DNA of 64,000 nucleotides from a virus (taxonomy: Duplodnaviria; Heunggongvirae; Uroviricota; Caudoviricetes). The stretch's first letter is position 1. Each line of letters opens with the position of its first letter. The translations under genes and the position numbers were made by a program. Shown in pieces: positions 5,419 to 20,931 of this stretch. A model generated the notes under the pieces. It was not told the DNA's origin. It did not search any database and worked only from the letters and a program-made list of their open reading frames with translations. The DNA is taken from positions 1-64,000 of IMG/VR virus record IMGVR_UViG_2630968933_000007; one strand, 5' to 3'.

Positions 5419-6135
5419 TCAGGCGGTCAGCTCTTTAAGCTTCTGAACTGCTTTATTCATTTCATCCATACAGTCGATGAATTCGTCCAGTTTAAGCTGC
5501 ATTTTTCCGGCGGCCTGAAGAATTTCAAGTTTTAAGGGCGCAAGTTTTTTGTTGAATTCATCATCTTCCTGGCGTTTTTTCTCCGCAATTTCGGCGGCTT
5601 TCAGCAATTCTTCAGCCTGTTTTCTGAGTATTTCTGGTGAAGGTGAAACTGCTTTGAGGTTATTCACTTCAGGTTCCTGTTGTTGCAGAATTAATTTGTT
5701 GCATTCTCTGCGTGAGCGTTTCATTGCAGATTCGCACTTCTTGCAATAAATGGCTCTCCCGTCACGCTTGCTGGCATCTGAATAAAAATCATTGACTGAT
5801 TTTGTCTGCCCGCATCTGGTACATAATTTTGATTGAAGGTCCTTAATGATTGTGACGTTTCCTTCCCGCTTGGGATATCCATATTTTTTGTGGCGTAAAA
5901 AGGTTACTCCGTTACCAGAACCTTCTTTTCTGACCTTAAATACAATGATGCTTTCCCGTTTATCGATAAAATCGATGAGCTGGTTTCTCTCCTTTCCTGA
6001 CAGTTCGGCAAATGTCTTAACTTTTTTAGTAACCTCAGTAAGGCGAACGCCGTCAGGCATTTTTTCAACGAAGTTTTTAATCTCTGCAAGCGGACGCCAT
6101 AATTTTTGCGGCAAAACTGAAGGCGTGGTCATCAA
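5419..6135 (-). CDS. Hypothetical protein with CxxC...CxxC zinc-ribbon and C-terminal coiled coil
   Basis: 238-aa ORF; motifs CTRCGQ...CKKCE. Confidence 0.55.
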   Translation of the reverse strand: MMTTPSVLPQKLWRPLAEIKNFVEKMPDGVRLTEVTKKVKTFAELSGKERNQLIDFIDKRESIIVFKVRKEGSGNGVTFLRHKKYGYPKREGNVTIIKDLQSKLCTRCGQTKSVNDFYSDASKRDGRAIYCKKCESAMKRSRRECNKLILQQQEPEVNNLKAVSPSPEILRKQAEELLKAAEIAEKKRQEDDEFNKKLAPLKLEILQAAGKMQLKLDEFIDCMDEMNKAVQKLKELTA

Positions 6136-6519
6136 TCACCTCGCCGTCAGTTGTTTGGATTTCCGGTAGCCTGCCGCGTAAATGGCTACGTTTGGAAGAC
6201 ATACACCAGTTTCTGGTTGCTTATGTCCAAACTCATTCGCGTACACAATGGCCGCTCGCTCCAGATTGCGTCTGTATTCTTTCTGTTGCCAGATCACGTC
6301 CTGTGCCATGAACTTAATTGGCTTAGCGTCTTCTATGCGCTCAGGCGTTTCGTGAGTACCTTTAGCCTGAATCTGCGCTCTGCTTAGAGTAGGGCGGTGT
6401 AATACTTCTGAACTTATTGCTTCTTCGCGGGCCAGCACGCCGTTAGCTAATGCCTTTGCCTTTAAACGCTCACGACGACGAGAACGTGAATTGCCTTTGA
6501 ACTGAGTTCTGCGTGTCAT
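6136..6519 (-). CDS. N: Antitermination protein N-like (arginine-rich N-terminal motif)
   Basis: First ORF downstream of pL/OL; N-terminal RRTQFKGNSRSRRRERLKAKA resembles N-family ARM; boxB hairpin in leader. Confidence 0.55.
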   Translation of the reverse strand: MTRRTQFKGNSRSRRRERLKAKALANGVLAREEAISSEVLHRPTLSRAQIQAKGTHETPERIEDAKPIKFMAQDVIWQQKEYRRNLERAAIVYANEFGHKQPETGVCLPNVAIYAAGYRKSKQLTAR

Positions 6520-6684
6520 ATAGACCTCCTGATGAACTTTGGTGGTGTGGTAGGTGGGAGACCCATTTCGACCTGTTTCGGCCTACTTCAATTCGGCAAT
6601 AGTCCCGCAGGCCCCGCCGCTTTACGTGCGACATATTCCCGTCCATGAACCCTTCACCACACCCCAAAGTTCACTTTGGTTATT

Positions 6685-6699
6685 GCGCTTTGTCAGCGC
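6685..6699 (-). promoter_or_regulatory. nutL boxB-like hairpin (GCGCUGACAAAGCGC, P22-type)
   Basis: 5-bp stem with GACAA loop in the pL leader; similar hairpin in nutR position at 8868-8882. Confidence 0.5.
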
Positions 6700-6767
6700 C
6701 GTAGATTCATATTTGAATCGTTGTATATTCACCGCCCAGGTGAGTAGTGCGTCCTGCTGATGTGTTT

Positions 6768-6830
6768 AGTATCACCGCCAGTGGTATTTATGTCAACACC
6801 GCCAGAGATAATTTATCACCGCAGATGGTT
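6768..6830 (-). promoter_or_regulatory. OL1-OL2-OL3 operators and pL promoter (lambda-type)
   Basis: tatcaccgccagtggta (6770-6786), caacaccgccagagata (6794-6810), tatcaccgcagatggtt (6814-6830); minus-strand -35 TTGACA at 6791-6796 and -10 GATACT at 6768-6773. Confidence 0.85.
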
Positions 6831-6969
6831 ATCTGTATGTTTTTTATATGGATTTATTTTTTGCAGGGTTGAGTGGCTTGGGAGGTGATCGAGAGATCTG
6901 AATTGCGATGTTTAGTGAGTTGTATCTATTTATTTTTCAATAAATACATTTGGTTATGTGTCTTTAGGT

Positions 6970-6979
6970 GGGGGGGGGG
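6970..6979. repeat. Homopolymeric G10 tract
   Basis: Ten consecutive G between the cI-operon terminator and OL. Confidence 0.95.
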
Positions 6980-6993
6980 TGAGGCAAAGAAAA

Positions 6994-7011
6994 CCCGGCT
7001 CTGTGGCCGGG
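6994..7011 (-). terminator. Intrinsic terminator of the cI operon (cccggc/gccggg stem, U-run on minus strand)
   Basis: Hairpin immediately after stop of 7020..7781 gene, followed on the minus strand by ttttcttt. Confidence 0.55.
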
Positions 7012-7019
7012 AATAACAT

Positions 7020-7781
7020 TTAGGAATCAAGGTCAGGTAGCATGATTTTCTCAATCAACGTCAATGCCCTTTGGTCTCGTTCAGCAAAATATTTAGGAGC
7101 GTACTGAGGCAGCCACACTTCGTTGAAGTGTTGTTTGAAATCTGCAAGATATTCGTTTGGGTATAGACGTACCGGGAATGTCCGGCCATCTGGGTACTCA
7201 TGGTTATATGTTGGGAATGTCTTCGGCTCAACCCCCCGGTTGTCACGGAGCCATTGCGAGAAAACCCTACCCTCTGAAATATCAGGGACCATTTTTTCTG
7301 GCAGCGTATATCCGGCCTGTTCAAGTGGCGCAACCAAGTTAAACGTCAGTTCATTAAGCATAGAAAAGTGCGTATGAGGAACTCTGCCTCGGTTTGTCAT
7401 ATACCGCTTAAGGTGGATAGGGAGTTCGGCAGGCGCTCTTTCACCTGACATCCACTCACGCACCCATCTCGATACTTGCACTGCAAATTTTGGAGATAGC
7501 CACTGAGCTAAATTAATTGCGATGTCTGGATGAACCCAAGTCCCTTGATTCTCTGCTCTTCCGCCTTTAAATGATTGAATTAACTCCGATATGGGAATCC
7601 CCATATCGCGTGATAATTCATCAAAAAAATCTTGTGTTGTTTTTAGTCGTGTATAGTCAGCAAGTAGCTTCCCCGCAGACTTGCACATCGCGGTGGCATT
7701 GATGTATCCGTCTTTGGTGCGAAGATGGATGACTTCTCCATCAACTTCTCTAGCGATTAATGCAAGTTGAAACTGTGTCAT
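7020..7781 (-). CDS. KilA-N domain protein with C-terminal domain of unknown function, in the rexAB position downstream of cI
   Basis: 253-aa ORF starting 31 bp after cI stop, same strand; N-terminal ...GYINATAMCKSAGK... region resembles KilA-N. Confidence 0.75.
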   Translation of the reverse strand: MTQFQLALIAREVDGEVIHLRTKDGYINATAMCKSAGKLLADYTRLKTTQDFFDELSRDMGIPISELIQSFKGGRAENQGTWVHPDIAINLAQWLSPKFAVQVSRWVREWMSGERAPAELPIHLKRYMTNRGRVPHTHFSMLNELTFNLVAPLEQAGYTLPEKMVPDISEGRVFSQWLRDNRGVEPKTFPTYNHEYPDGRTFPVRLYPNEYLADFKQHFNEVWLPQYAPKYFAERDQRALTLIEKIMLPDLDS

Positions 7782-7812
7782 AAATCATCCTATTACGTGA
7801 AAAATAAAACAA

Positions 7813-8529
<717 letters not shown>

Positions 8530-8535
8530 TTAAAT

Positions 8536-8601
8536 CTATCACCGCAAGGGATAAATATCTAACACCGTGCGTGTTGACTATTTTACCTCTAGCGGTGATA
8601 A
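8536..8601. promoter_or_regulatory. OR3-OR2-OR1 operators with PRM/PR promoters
   Basis: tatcaccgcaagggata (8536-8552), taacaccgtgcgtgttg (8560-8576), tacctctagcggtgata (8584-8600); PR -35 TTGACT 8574-8579, -10 GATAAT 8596-8601. Confidence 0.9.
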
Positions 8602-8626
8602 TGGTTGCATGTACTAAGGAGGTTGT

Positions 8627-8827
8627 ATGGAACAACGCATAACCCTGAAAGATTATGCAATACGCTTTGGGCAAACCAAGACGGCTAAAGATCTCGGCGT
8701 ATATCAAAGCGCGATTAACAAGGCCATTCATGCAGGCCGAAAGATTTTTTTAACTATAAACGCTGATGGAAGCGTTTATGCGGAAGAAATAAAGCCCTTC
8801 CCAAGTAACAAAAAAACAACTGCATAA
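8627..8827 (+). CDS. cro: Cro repressor
   Basis: 66-aa [56 protein letters not shown] matches lambda Cro; SD taaggagg. Confidence 0.95.
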
Positions 8828-8836
8828 GTAACACCG

Positions 8837-8882
8837 CTCTTTTCACAATGGACATTCGTCCTACGTCGCTGACAAAGCGAGT
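8837..8882 (+). promoter_or_regulatory. nutR-like site (boxA-like cgctctttt, boxB hairpin tcgctgacaaagcga)
   Basis: boxA-like at 8837-8845, hairpin with GACAA loop at 8868-8882, between cro and cII. Confidence 0.5.
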
Positions 8883-8965
8883 CCCAAGATATCTGACCAA
8901 CTAAGGCCATATGCGTTTCCACGCATACCTTTCAACTAGCTATTCACTATTGGAAATCATAAGAA

Positions 8966-9425: not shown

Positions 9426-10004
9426 ATGCGTAATTACGCAACAATTTCACCTCAGTTCTGGTTAGGCGATACAGGGCGAAAACTAAGGAAGTCTGGTCCG
9501 GAATGTATGGTAGTGGCGTTGTATATGATGACCTCGCCTCATTCCAATATGCTGGGCCTTTATTACCTGCCTGTTTTGTACATTGCTCACGAAACCGGAC
9601 TTGCTCCTGAAGGGGCTTCTAAGGGGCTTCAAATGGCTTGCGAGGCTGGTTTTTGCAGCTATGACCATGATTCTGAGGTTGTATGGGTGCATGAAATGGC
9701 AGCATGGCAGGTTGGTGAATCGCTGAAACCTGGCGATAACCGTTGTGCTGGGGTAAGAAATGAATATTCCGCGTTGCTGGAAAATCCTTTTTTATCATCC
9801 TTTTATGATAGATATAAGGATGATTTCCACCTGGATGTCAGACGTGAATCATGTCGGAAAATTGAAGCCCCTTCAGAGCCCCTTCAGAGCCCCTTTCAAG
9901 CCAAGAACAGGAACAGGAACAGGAACAGGAAAGGGATAAAACCCTTCTGGTCCATGGCGAAAAAATCGCCACGGACCCACAGGGGGATTTTTGTCCTGTT
10001 CTGA
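9426..10004 (+). CDS. Replication initiator, putative origin-binding N-terminal part (ORF terminates after iteron array)
   Basis: 192-aa ORF in O-gene position; 3' end contains the tandem repeats and encodes (NR)n. Confidence 0.5.
   Translation: MRNYATISPQFWLGDTGRKLRKSGPECMVVALYMMTSPHSNMLGLYYLPVLYIAHETGLAPEGASKGLQMACEAGFCSYDHDSEVVWVHEMAAWQVGESLKPGDNRCAGVRNEYSALLENPFLSSFYDRYKDDFHLDVRRESCRKIEAPSEPLQSPFQAKNRNRNRNRKGIKPFWSMAKKSPRTHRGIFVLF
9866..9934. repeat. Putative ori iterons: 11-bp unit agccccttcag x3 then hexamer gaacag x4
   Basis: Tandem repeats read directly at 9866-9900 and 9905-9928, inside the replication gene as in lambda O. Confidence 0.6.
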
Positions 10005-10057
10005 CTGAACGTCCAGGACCAGATGGCACGACACCGGAAGCAGATTCCGGGCGTTGT

Positions 10058-10519
10058 GTGCAGCAGGTGCTGATCGTCGAACCGGAGCAACAACGCCAAC
10101 CGCAGCAGCCTGAAGCCGATTCCGCGATGAGCGGGAAGCCGATTGGGTTAACCCGGGCGATGCCGGGACCGTCTGCGGGACGAGTTGATTATCCTGACGT
10201 GTTCGAACGGGTCTGGCGTGAATATCCGCATCGGGCAGGGTCAAACCCGAAGAAATCCGCGTTCAATGCCTGGAGGGCCAGATTACGCGAAGGGGTGTCA
10301 CCGGATGTCGTGCTGGATGGCGTGAGGCGTTACGCAAGATACCTGGAGGCTACCGGGAAAGCGGGAACTGAATTTGTTCAGCAGGCATCGACGTTTTTTG
10401 GCCCGAACAGGAATTTCGAAAATCCGTGGTCGCTGCCGAAGGTTGGCGCAGTCAGCCTGCGTTGCGTGAATCACATTTCTGAACCGGACACCGAAATTCC
10501 GCCGGGTTTCAGGGGGTAA
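10058..10519 (+). CDS. DnaT-like primosomal/replisome-organiser domain protein (reading frame open upstream to 9866)
   Basis: C-terminus ...ISEPDTEIPPGFRG resembles E. coli DnaT C-terminus (…SEPDSQIPPGFRG); listed start is GTG; frame has no stop back to 9866. Confidence 0.6.
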   Translation: MQQVLIVEPEQQRQPQQPEADSAMSGKPIGLTRAMPGPSAGRVDYPDVFERVWREYPHRAGSNPKKSAFNAWRARLREGVSPDVVLDGVRRYARYLEATGKAGTEFVQQASTFFGPNRNFENPWSLPKVGAVSLRCVNHISEPDTEIPPGFRG

Positions 10520-18957: not shown

Positions 18958-20931
18958 ATGGCATTTAAACACTATGACGTGGTCAGGGCATCATCGCCGT
19001 CAGACCTCGCAGGAAAACTGACGCAAAAACTGAAGGAAGGCTGGCAACCCTATGGTAGTCCGATTATCTCAAACGCGGGTTATGGTGCTGAATTTATCCA
19101 GGCTATAGTCGCTGAAGGGGATATGACCTCTCCGGTAGTTTCACCGGGGGGAGATGGTACCCGGACTGTTGTTGTTGAACCAGAATATTACTTTGTCATT
19201 GCGCTGGCCGGACAGTCAAACGGCATGGCGTATGGTGAAGGCCTGCCGCTGCCGGAGACATATGACCGTCCGGACCCGCGTATTAAACAGCTGGCGCGTC
19301 GCAGTACGGTGACACCGGGTGGTGCGGCCTGTGCATATAACGACATCATTCCGGCGGACCACTGCCTGCATGATGTGCAGGATTTGAGCCGTTTTTCTCA
19401 TCCGAAAGCCAGCGCAGAGCAGTATGGGTGTGTCGGACAGGGATTGCATATTGCCAAAAAGCTGTTGCCCTTTATGCCGGAAAATGCGGGTATTTTGTTA
19501 GTGCCGTGCTGTCGTGGTGGGTCTGCGTTTACAGCCGGTGCTGACGGAACGTTCAGTGAAAGTTCAGGAGCGTCGGATAAATCTGAACGATGGGGCGTTG
19601 ATAAGCCGTTGTATAAAGACCTGCTGACACGCACTCAGGCCGCGCTGAAGGCAAACCCCAAAAACATACTGCTTTGTGTTGTCTGGATGCAGGGCGAGTT
19701 TGATTTAAAACAGGGAGCGTACGCCAGTCAGCCCGCCATGTTTGATGCCATGGTGGAAAAATACCGTTCTGACCTGGCGGGAGTATCCGGTCAGTGCGCT
19801 GGTGCTTCTCCTTCTCTGGTGCCCTGGATTTGTGGTGACACGACGTACTACTGGAAGGAGACGTATTCAGCGCAATACGATGCCGTCTATGGCGCATACA
19901 AAACCAAAGCCGGTAAAAATATCTTCTTTGTGCCGTTTATGATGGATGACAATGGTCAGAAAGTCGGGACCAATGAACCGTCAGAAGACCCGGATATTCC
20001 GGCTATCGGGTATTATGGTTCCGGTGGACGAACGGATGCGAAGAGCTGGACAACATCCGATCGTAAAACCCACTTTGGTTCATGGGCGCGTCGCGGAATT
20101 ATTTCCGACCGTCTGGCAACAGCCATTCTTCTGCATGTGGGCAGAGTGGCAGATTTTGTTTCCGGGAAAGTGACAAAAGCCGCGGTTTCTTCAGGCGGAG
20201 GCGTATCGCAACCAGCACAGGAGAGTGGCGATACTCAGCCTGAATCCGTTGTCCCGACAAAGATACAGTCAGTGCTGGCTTATGATGCGAATGCGGAAAA
20301 TGCCGATCTGGCTTCGCAGGGCTGGACGCTGACAGATGTCAAAAACACGCTGGTCAGTGACAGTGGTTCAGGTAAAAAAGCCCTTCGTCTTGAAAAACCA
20401 GAAAATGGTCTTGCACAGAAAAAGACCTGGAAAGTATCGCACGCAATTGATGCCGGTAAGGGGAAGGAGCTGTTCGATAACGGCGGTGAAATCACGCTGC
20501 GCTTTAAAATCCCCGATGATGTATCTCTCAATGCTTCTGCAAATCAATATTCTGCGGGTATTTACTGGCGCGGTAGTGGATGGCCGGGAGCGGAATCAGA
20601 GGAGGGTTATATTGCGGCCTTCTATCTGCAGACTGATAAAACAAACATCAATGTGATGTATCATGCAAACACCACATCACAGCGGCTTGGTAGTTATGGT
20701 CCGTTCGATCACGACTGGCACACGCTGACTTTCCGCTTCCCGGGTGGTGGCTCGCTGAACGTCACGCCGGTGCTTGATAATGCAGCAGGAAAACCGTTTA
20801 CGCTGACCAGATGGACGAATGCAGCCTTTGAGGCCAACGCGCTGGCAATTACGGATATTACCGGAAATGCGGCAACTTACCCTGTGCTGATTGAAAGTCT
20901 TACTGTTGGTGTGAATGCCGTAGCAGCATAA
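18958..20931 (+). CDS. nanS: Prophage sialate O-acetylesterase NanS-p-like (DUF1737 N-terminus + SGNH hydrolase)
   Basis: N-terminal MAFKHYDVVRASSPSDLAGKL...; SGNH block ALAGQSNGMAYG; position downstream of Q as in Stx phages. Confidence 0.8.
   Translation: MAFKHYDVVRASSPSDLAGKLTQKLKEGWQPYGSPIISNAGYGAEFIQAIVAEGDMTSPVVSPGGDGTRTVVVEPEYYFVIALAGQSNGMAYGEGLPLPETYDRPDPRIKQLARRSTVTPGGAACAYNDIIPADHCLHDVQDLSRFSHPKASAEQYGCVGQGLHIAKKLLPFMPENAGILLVPCCRGGSAFTAGADGTFSESSGASDKSERWGVDKPLYKDLLTRTQAALKANPKNILLCVVWMQGEFDLKQGAYASQPAMFDAMVEKYRSDLAGVSGQCAGASPSLVPWICGDTTYYWKETYSAQYDAVYGAYKTKAGKNIFFVPFMMDDNGQKVGTNEPSEDPDIPAIGYYGSGGRTDAKSWTTSDRKTHFGSWARRGIISDRLATAILLHVGRVADFVSGKVTKAAVSSGGGVSQPAQESGDTQPESVVPTKIQSVLAYDANAENADLASQGWTLTDVKNTLVSDSGSGKKALRLEKPENGLAQKKTWKVSHAIDAGKGKELFDNGGEITLRFKIPDDVSLNASANQYSAGIYWRGSGWPGAESEEGYIAAFYLQTDKTNINVMYHANTTSQRLGSYGPFDHDWHTLTFRFPGGGSLNVTPVLDNAAGKPFTLTRWTNAAFEANALAITDITGNAATYPVLIESLTVGVNAVAA

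What the first reader, a model, noticed from the sequence alone, without database searches (positions are those of the whole stretch)
6970..6979. G10 homopolymer between the cI-operon terminator and OL/pL
A ten-G run sits in the 190-bp region separating the end of the cI/KilA-N transcript from the pL operators. Tracts of this length are prone to slipped-strand mispairing and could alter spacing of regulatory elements or termination efficiency; they are also a common site of sequencing error.
Basis: seen in the sequence. Interest (0 to 1): 0.22.

Follow-up and report, generated by a model that had tools for sequence, protein, structure and literature searches.

The report
Variable G-run beside lambda immunity terminator
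The ten-G run is real and sits just past the terminator of the repressor operon of a lambda-immunity prophage; it is an ordinary slippage-prone homopolymer whose length varies (6 to 10) among otherwise identical relatives, and nothing suggests that it regulates anything.

Summary
G10 lies at 6970-6979 and is the only G/C run of 8 or more in the window. The window is an E. coli prophage in ynfG, 933W/PhiR5_2-like, with lambda immunity. On the minus strand the order is cI, a KilA-N gene, the Timm terminator (hairpin 7011-6994, U-tract 6993-6986), the tract read as C10, a 139-bp spacer, then OL3-OL1/pL and N.

The tract lies in the only poorly conserved patch of an otherwise nearly invariant Timm-OL spacer; lambda has G5 followed by CGATC at this spot. 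Relatives identical over about 330 bp apart from at most one SNP carry G6, G7, G9 or G10. A second lineage with different cargo carries G6, G7, G8 and G10. The interrupted form G5CG was 7 nt in 11 of 11 contigs. Of 180 complete E. coli genomes with this region, one other has G10.

So this is a hypermutable run that is probably close to neutral. It lies outside any conserved ORF, promoter or RNA structure and beyond the transcript release point. A minimal lambda-derived Timm without the tract was judged a strong terminator. I could not test whether G10 here is real or a base-calling error. Interest is low.

The parts
6970..6979 (+). G10 homopolymer (C10 on the transcribed minus strand); the finding itself
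   Evidence: Read directly. It is the only G/C run of 8 or more in the window. Its length varies from 6 to 10 in relatives.
6962..6979 (.). Short hypervariable patch of the Timm-OL spacer that contains the tract (here CTTTAGGT followed by G10; lambda has TTTGGGGGCGATC)
   Evidence: Per-column conservation over 32 distinct spacer sequences from 64 contigs: majority-base frequency is 0.4-0.8 here, against about 1.0 in the flanking blocks. There are 21 different versions of the patch among 123 matches.
6994..7011 (-). Hairpin of the intrinsic terminator Timm (CCCGGC-CACAGA-GCCGGG) that ends the cI/KilA-N transcript
   Evidence: Terminator scan. Predicted fold of -12 kcal/mol, z = -2.2. It aligns with the terminator annotated Timm in mEp234 (EF120460) and with lambda.
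6986..6993 (-). U-tract of Timm (TTTTCTTT); RNA release is expected here, 6-7 nt before the C-run
   Evidence: The position of release (7-9 nt after the hairpin) is taken from established knowledge as stated in PMC3993855.
7020..7781 (-). KilA-N domain gene, the last gene of the cI operon, in the position of lambda rexA/rexB
   Evidence: Pfam PF04383, E = 8e-27. RefSeq annotates the identical region in E. coli G1/2 as a KilA-N domain-containing protein.
7813..8526 (-). cI repressor (237 aa)
   Evidence: Pfam HTH_3 plus Peptidase_S24. Annotated as cI in PhiR5_2.
6770..6830 (.). Operators OL1 (6770-6786), OL2 (6794-6810) and OL3 (6814-6830), identical to lambda's
   Evidence: Alignment with lambda J02459 and mEp234, in which these operators are annotated.
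6768..6796 (-). pL promoter (TTGACA, 17 nt, GATACT). The start site is about 6761, so the tract lies at about -209 to -218.
   Evidence: Promoter scan. The start site is placed by analogy with the mEp234 annotation.
6136..6519 (-). Antiterminator N gene, the first gene of the pL operon
   Evidence: Pfam N_peptide, E = 2e-15. Annotated as N in PhiR5_2.

Best explanation
The tract is a slippage-prone G:C homopolymer with no dedicated function. It lies in the one unconstrained patch of the conserved spacer between the terminator of the repressor operon (Timm) and the left operators of a lambda-immunity prophage. The likely history (inferred) is as follows. The ancestral patch was a short interrupted G-rich sequence: lambda has GGGGGCGATC and many relatives have GGGGGCG. 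A C-to-G change turned GGGGGCG into an uninterrupted G7. Replication slippage then spread the length between 6 and 10. The window carries the long extreme. Shown here: the position, the homology to lambda Timm and OL, the length polymorphism among near-identical relatives, the constant length of the interrupted form, and the absence of any conserved ORF, promoter or RNA motif over the tract. Inferred: that the variation is selectively near-neutral and that slippage is the mechanism.
For: (1) Lambda and mEp234 align through the whole interval. The tract replaces lambda's TTTGGGGGCGATC between the invariant blocks TTGGTTATGTGT and GTGAGGCAAAGAAAACCCGG. (2) Over 6684-7015, the prophages of E. coli G1/2 (G7), PhiR5_2 (G7), L132 (G6) and L127 (G9) differ from the window only in tract length plus at most one SNP. 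In the lineage with a DUF1828 gene next to Timm, O104:H4 (G7), L123 (G8) and S1-CAM-02-A (G10) likewise differ in the tract plus one SNP. (3) Census of the CTTTAGGT-type patch in viral and metagenome contigs plus fetched records: G6 in 6, G7 in 9, G8 in 2, G9 in 1 and G10 in 1 (the window). The interrupted G5CG form is 7 nt in 11 of 11 contigs, and one contig has G4CG. Non-homopolymer versions are constant within their modules, for example TCTTGGGTGAGGGGGATC in 12 contigs and lambda's version in 11. (4) A 90-nt probe found the region in 180 of 5,426 complete E. coli genomes. One has G10. Twenty-five have G7, among them some 15-20 assemblies that are labelled O104:H4 or are O104:H4 outbreak or reference isolates. 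Several hits are 86 nt long, as expected for G6. The listed hits include none with the identity expected for G8 or G9. (5) The patch is the least conserved part of the spacer. (6) The predicted terminator hairpin is unchanged between G7 and G10, and the C-run is unpaired in both folds. (7) A synthetic, slightly modified lambda Timm that ends at the U-tract, with no downstream tract, was judged 'likely a powerful terminator' on the basis of plasmid retention (PMC3640518). (8) No Rfam family matches 6100-8900. The only ORF across the tract (6873-7016, +) changes frame and end among relatives.
Against: No functional measurement exists for this phage. The tract lies within the roughly 18 bp of downstream duplex that RNA polymerase holds while it sits on the U-tract (10.1101/453969). 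Downstream base composition is known to influence termination at imperfect U-tracts such as this one (PMC3993855), so a small effect on read-through cannot be excluded. The patch is G-rich in every version seen, which may hint at weak constraint on composition. Some of the length variation in public assemblies may itself be sequencing error.
Confidence: 0.72

Rival explanations
1. The value 10 is a sequencing or assembly artefact. On this view the true tract in this prophage is G7, as in the sister prophages at the same chromosomal site, and the extra three G are a homopolymer miscall.
For: The closest relatives all read G7. These are the prophages in ynfG of E. coli G1/2, G6/7 and G8, which have a 100% identical host flank and no other difference in 411 bp, together with ML35 and PhiR5_2. 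G10 is rare, seen in 1 of 180 complete genomes. Long G-runs are a known weak point of several sequencing platforms (general knowledge).
Against: An error of +3 is large. The window shows no sign of widespread homopolymer error. Between 1910 and 14263 the tract is the only indel against G1/2. In the portal and terminase region, where RefSeq marks G1/2 genes as frameshifted, most of the indels are bases that G1/2 lacks. Only a handful of clean homopolymer differences separate the window from PhiR5_2 over about 57 kb. Long alleles (G8, G9, G10) occur in four other independent assemblies.
Confidence: 0.2
2. The tract is a contingency (phase- or rheostat-variable) element. On this view its length tunes how much of the pRM/pRE transcript escapes Timm and runs into OL, pL and N. 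Alternatively it alters the geometry of the upstream region of pL, and so sets the stability of lysogeny in subpopulations.
For: The length really is polymorphic among near-identical prophages. The tract lies 14 nt from the hairpin and within the polymerase's downstream DNA footprint at the termination site. GC-rich downstream DNA disfavours termination at imperfect U-tracts (PMC3993855). A UP element near OL that acts on pL and pRM is known in lambda (PMC3708714).
Against: Lengthening from 7 to 10 adds G:C pairs only at about +14 to +16 from the release site, far from the melting fork. The AT-rich block next to OL3 (6830-6860) is more than 100 bp away. At an OL-OR distance of about 1.8 kb, 3 bp should not matter for looping (inference). 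The patch is the least conserved part of the spacer, and many relatives have no homopolymer there. A minimal lambda-derived Timm without the tract was judged a strong terminator. The lengths form a spread around 6-7, not two discrete states.
Confidence: 0.06
3. The tract switches the reading frame of a small protein gene, the 47-codon ORF at 6873-7016 on the + strand, whose product contains GGG encoded by the run.
For: The ORF exists. G7 and G10 keep the same frame, whereas G6, G8 and G9 change it.
Against: No promoter-like site faces this way. The ORF runs antisense through the terminator and starts with GTG. Across 32 versions of the spacer its start, frame, length and end are not conserved. 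Neither RefSeq nor the PhiR5_2 record annotates it.
Confidence: 0.01

Closest known systems
Phage lambda Timm-OL spacer (lambda about 35,652-35,824: the terminator of the cI-rexA-rexB transcript and the region upstream of pL)
   Same: Homologous DNA, about 90% identical over the spacer. OL1-3 are identical and the terminator stem and U-tract are the same. It occupies the same place in the operon and runs in the same direction. A G-run sits at the same spot in lambda (GGGGG at about 35,782-35,786, computed).
   Different: Lambda's run is G5 followed by CGATC (a Dam/PvuI site). Here it is an uninterrupted G10 and the GATC is gone. The gene before the terminator is a KilA-N gene instead of rexB. 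The hairpin loop differs (CACAGA against CTCAGC on the minus strand).
Wild lambda-immunity phages mEp234, HK106, HK542, HK244, HK544, CL707 and mEp332 (GenBank EF120455-EF120461, immunity regions annotated with Timm)
   Same: The architecture is the same: N, nutL, pL/OL1-3, spacer, Timm, variable cargo, cI. The spacer is 87-93% identical.
   Different: They carry other versions of the patch (for example TTTGGGGCGAAC in mEp234) and other cargo genes (hicAB in mEp234). None of those aligned has a long homopolymer.
Simple-sequence contingency loci (phase-variable poly-G/poly-C tracts in genes or promoters of Neisseria, Haemophilus, Campylobacter and Bordetella; general knowledge)
   Same: A G:C mononucleotide run of 7 or more whose length differs among very close relatives.
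   Different: Those tracts lie inside a reading frame or between promoter elements, so a length change switches expression. This one lies in neither, and no on/off states are visible.
Homopolymer length errors of sequencing platforms
   Same: A long G-run whose length disagrees with the closest relatives by a few bases.
   Different: Several independent assemblies show long alleles, and the window is otherwise clean of homopolymer indels. Reads are not available, so this stays open.

Membership tests
Lambda-type immunity region (imm-lambda) | Three 17-bp CI/Cro operators at pL with lambda's sequences and spacing | tested here: met
   OL1, OL2 and OL3 at 6770-6786, 6794-6810 and 6814-6830 are invariant in the alignment with lambda and mEp234, where they are annotated.
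Lambda-type immunity region (imm-lambda) | A cI repressor with an HTH domain and an S24 self-cleavage domain, transcribed divergently from cro and in the same direction as pL and N | tested here: met
   The ORF at 7813-8526 (-) has HTH_3 plus Peptidase_S24, and N at 6136-6519 (-) matches N_peptide. cro lies at 8627-8827 (+).
Timm intrinsic terminator | A GC-rich hairpin followed directly by a U-rich tract, placed after the last gene of the cI operon and before OL | tested here: met
   A 6-bp all-GC stem with a 6-nt loop, followed by TTTTCTTT, lies 8 nt after the KilA-N stop codon.
Timm intrinsic terminator | Sequence homology to the terminator of lambda and of wild imm-lambda phages | tested here: met
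   GTGAGGCAAAGAAAACCCGGC...GCCGGG is invariant in the alignment with lambda and mEp234. It is annotated 'Timm' in EF120460.
Timm intrinsic terminator | It actually terminates pRM/pRE transcripts | not testable with these tools
   This needs 3'-end mapping or reporter fusions. For a lambda-derived synthetic Timm there is indirect evidence from plasmid retention (PMC3640518).
Contingency locus (phase-variable simple-sequence repeat) | A hypermutable repeat tract whose length differs among close relatives | tested here: met
   G6, G7, G9 and G10 occur in sequences otherwise identical over about 330 bp, and G7, G8 and G10 in a second lineage. Census.
Contingency locus (phase-variable simple-sequence repeat) | The tract lies inside a coding frame or between core promoter elements, so that a length change switches a gene on or off | tested here: not met
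   No conserved ORF crosses it. No promoter-like site lies within 170 bp. It lies beyond the terminator's U-tract.
Contingency locus (phase-variable simple-sequence repeat) | Heritable, reversible phenotypic states linked to tract length | not testable with these tools
   This needs experiments on lysogens.
Sequencing artefact | Read-level length distribution centred on a value different from the assembly | not testable with these tools
   No reads are available. Indirect checks show no general homopolymer-error signature in the window.

The most novel reading that the evidence does not exclude
The G:C run just past Timm could act as a mutable rheostat. Longer runs would stiffen the downstream duplex held by RNA polymerase at the imperfect U-tract and lower termination efficiency. 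Some lysogens would then leak pRM/pRE transcription across OL and into N, which would give heritable subpopulations with different prophage stability.
Probability: 0.04. Interest if true: 0.45.

Novelty: already known. Interest (0 to 1): 0.08.

Why it matters
It matters little. The result is useful mainly as housekeeping. It shows that the tract is a real, polymorphic homopolymer in a well-characterised lambda regulatory spacer. It flags the base count as something to confirm from reads before using it for typing or SNP/indel phylogeny. It also shows that the tract should not be read as a regulatory element. Only if tract length measurably changed read-through of Timm would it become a modest new example of a mutable terminator in a prophage switch.

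Tried and rejected
1. RNA families: an Rfam scan of 6100-8900 at E up to 1 found nothing.
2. IHF sites: a scan for the consensus WATCAANNNNTTR with up to 1 mismatch over 6800-7020 found none.
3. Small ORF across the tract (6873-7016, +): it is not conserved in frame or length across 32 spacer versions, so I rejected it.
4. Bidirectional terminator: on the + strand the hairpin is followed by AATAACATTT, with no T-run, so I rejected it.
5. G-quadruplex: a single G-run cannot form an intramolecular quadruplex, and no set of four runs lies nearby (read), so I rejected it.
6. RNA pairing: in the predicted folds the C-run is unpaired, and the fold is the same for G7 and G10.
7. GTDB species-representative genomes: the specific patch pattern gave 0 hits.
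8. Artefact test by indel spectrum against G1/2 and PhiR5_2: informative but not decisive. G1/2 itself looks error-prone, and PhiR5_2 is too divergent in places.
9. Literature: Degnan et al. 2007, Cui et al. 2013 and Michalowski & Little 2013 are not held. The exact coordinates of the OL-proximal UP element and IHF site therefore could not be checked. Only its existence near OL is cited (PMC3708714). A search for PhiR5_2 found no relevant paper.

Full report
**Observation.** The + strand reads gtctttaggt-GGGGGGGGGG-tgaggcaaag, with the ten G at exactly 6970-6979. No other run of 8 or more G or C occurs on either strand of the window. The next longest is a G7 at 33841-33847. By composition the run is only mildly unusual: 12 of 100 dinucleotide-preserving shuffles contain a G10.

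**Context.** The window is part of an E. coli chromosome that carries a lambdoid prophage.
- Bases 1-59313 are 95-99.7% identical to Escherichia phage PhiR5_2 (PV340546), apart from three short unaligned gaps. PhiR5_2's gene set is annotated largely by similarity to 933W and CP-933V prophage genes.
- Bases 59314-64000 are ynfG/ynfF/ynfE, 100% identical to E. coli G1/2, G6/7 and G8. Those strains carry a 99.5% identical prophage at the same site.
- Around the finding, the minus strand encodes cI (7813-8526; HTH_3 plus Peptidase_S24), a KilA-N domain gene (7020-7781) and N (6136-6519).
- OL1, OL2 and OL3 (6770-6786, 6794-6810, 6814-6830) are identical to lambda's. pL is TTGACA-17-GATACT at 6796-6768.
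- Eight nucleotides after the KilA-N stop codon lies a six-pair all-GC hairpin (7011-6994, -12 kcal/mol), followed by TTTTCTTT. It aligns base for base with the terminator annotated 'Timm' in phage mEp234 and with lambda's.

On the transcribed strand the tract is C10. It starts 14 nt after the hairpin and 6 nt after the U-tract. It lies 139 bp before OL3, at about -209 to -218 relative to the pL start.

**Homology of the spot.** Lambda, mEp234, PhiR5_2 and the window align through the whole spacer. The tract lies between two invariant blocks, TTGGTTATGTGT and GTGAGGCAAAGAAAACCCGG. Lambda has TTTGGGGGCGATC there, and mEp234 has TTTGGGGCGAAC. A pattern scan of viral contigs with those two blocks as anchors returned 119 contigs and 21 different fillings, all G-rich and 12-18 nt long. 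I computed column conservation over 32 distinct spacer sequences from 64 contigs that have lambda's OL3. Positions 6962-6979 are the least conserved part of the interval (majority frequency 0.4-0.8), while most of the rest is invariant or nearly so.

**Length polymorphism.** I restricted the analysis to the window's version of the patch (CTTTAGGT, then Gn, then TGAGG). Viral and metagenome contigs plus fetched records give the counts below.

| Form | Contigs |
|---|---|
| G6 | 6 |
| G7 | 9 |
| G8 | 2 |
| G9 | 1 |
| G10 | 1 (the window) |
| G5CG (interrupted, 7 nt) | 11 |
| G4CG (interrupted) | 1 |

- Complete E. coli genomes add one more G10 (strain S1-CAM-02-A). A 90-nt probe found the region in 180 of 5,426 genomes. 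One has G10. Twenty-five have G7, including some 15-20 assemblies that are labelled O104:H4 or are O104:H4 outbreak or reference isolates. Several hits are 86 nt long, as expected for G6. The listed hits include none with the identity expected for G8 or G9.
- The comparison over 6684-7015 carries the most weight. G1/2 (G7), L132 (G6), L127 (G9) and PhiR5_2 (G7) differ from the window in nothing but the tract, plus one SNP in two of them.
- In a second lineage a DUF1828 gene replaces KilA-N next to Timm. There O104:H4 (G7), L123 (G8) and S1-CAM-02-A (G10) again differ only in the tract, plus one SNP.
- Non-homopolymer versions of the patch are constant within their modules.

This is the behaviour expected of replication slippage in an uninterrupted run. 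The data also suggest a simple origin: GGGGGCG changed to GGGGGGG by one substitution, and the length then drifted. That step is inferred.

**Does it do anything?** I found nothing to suggest so.
- No Rfam family matches the region.
- The predicted terminator hairpin is the same with G7 and G10, and the C-run stays unpaired.
- No promoter-like site lies near the tract, and there is no IHF consensus.
- The only ORF across it (6873-7016, +) is not conserved in frame or length among relatives.
- Intrinsic termination releases RNA within the 7-9-nt U-tract (PMC3993855), so the tract is normally not transcribed from pRM or pRE.
- The tract does fall inside the roughly 18 bp of downstream duplex held by the polymerase (10.1101/453969). 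AT-rich downstream DNA helps termination at imperfect U-tracts, so a G:C run could weaken Timm slightly. Going from G7 to G10, however, only changes positions at about +14 to +16, far from the fork.
- A synthetic, slightly modified lambda Timm that ends at the U-tract was judged 'likely a powerful terminator' on the basis of plasmid retention (PMC3640518).
- A UP element near OL that acts on pL and, through CI looping, on pRM is known in lambda (PMC3708714). The AT-rich block next to OL3 is 6830-6860, more than 100 bp from the tract. I could not read the primary papers to check exact coordinates.

**Real or artefact?** I could not decide this. The sister prophages at the same site read G7, and G10 is rare. 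On the other hand, a +3 miscall is large. Long alleles occur in four other independent assemblies. The window is otherwise clean: the tract is the only indel against G1/2 between 1910 and 14263. In the portal and terminase region, where RefSeq marks G1/2 genes as frameshifted, most of the indels are bases that G1/2 lacks. I put the artefact reading at about 0.2.

**Verdict.** The suggested regulatory consequences are unsupported and structurally unlikely. This is an ordinary hypermutable homopolymer in a known lambda spacer. Interest is low.

Noticed in passing
window 9426-10519 (duplication at about 9866): The lambda-O-like replication initiator is intact in PhiR5_2 (360 aa). In the window it is split into two ORFs (9426-10004 and 10058-10519) by an 11-bp tandem duplication, AGCCCCTTCAG. 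The same state occurs in E. coli G1/2, where RefSeq marks the gene 'frameshifted'. The prophage may be unable to replicate.
   Followed up: partly
window 6994-7020, and loci L004-L142: Timm is a mosaic junction. In 141 contigs that share the Timm-OL spacer, at least 29 unrelated sequences begin immediately on the promoter-proximal side of the hairpin. They include rexB in lambda, the KilA-N gene here, a DUF1828 gene in O104:H4 and hicAB in mEp234. The cI-to-Timm slot therefore behaves as a cargo exchange site.
   Followed up: partly
L135 and L039 (metagenome and IMG/VR contigs) against window 6684-6830: Contigs with quite different operator and pL sequences, which suggests different immunity, still share the Timm-proximal spacer and the G-run patch. 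The spacer is therefore exchanged between phages that appear to be heteroimmune.
   Followed up: no
L137 (E. coli S1-CAM-02-A), equivalent to window 6782: The only other G10 carrier also has a T-to-C change inside OL1, at position 13 of the 17-bp operator. Whether this affects CI binding is unknown.
   Followed up: no
window about 35921; also 37405-37412, 19146 and 38101: There is a second 11-bp tandem duplication (TTCAATGGTCA) relative to PhiR5_2. A few other clean homopolymer length differences were also seen: T8 against T5 at 37410, G6 against G7 at 19146, and G4 against G5 at 38101.
   Followed up: no
window 59314-64000: This stretch is host chromosome (ynfG remnant, ynfF, ynfE). The prophage is inserted in ynfG, as in E. 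coli G1/2, G6/7 and G8. The window begins inside the phage recombination genes, so the integrase end is not included.
   Followed up: yes
window 5419-6135 (-): A 238-aa ORF directly downstream of N has no Pfam match. It is annotated 'hypothetical protein' in PhiR5_2 and in RefSeq genomes.
   Followed up: no
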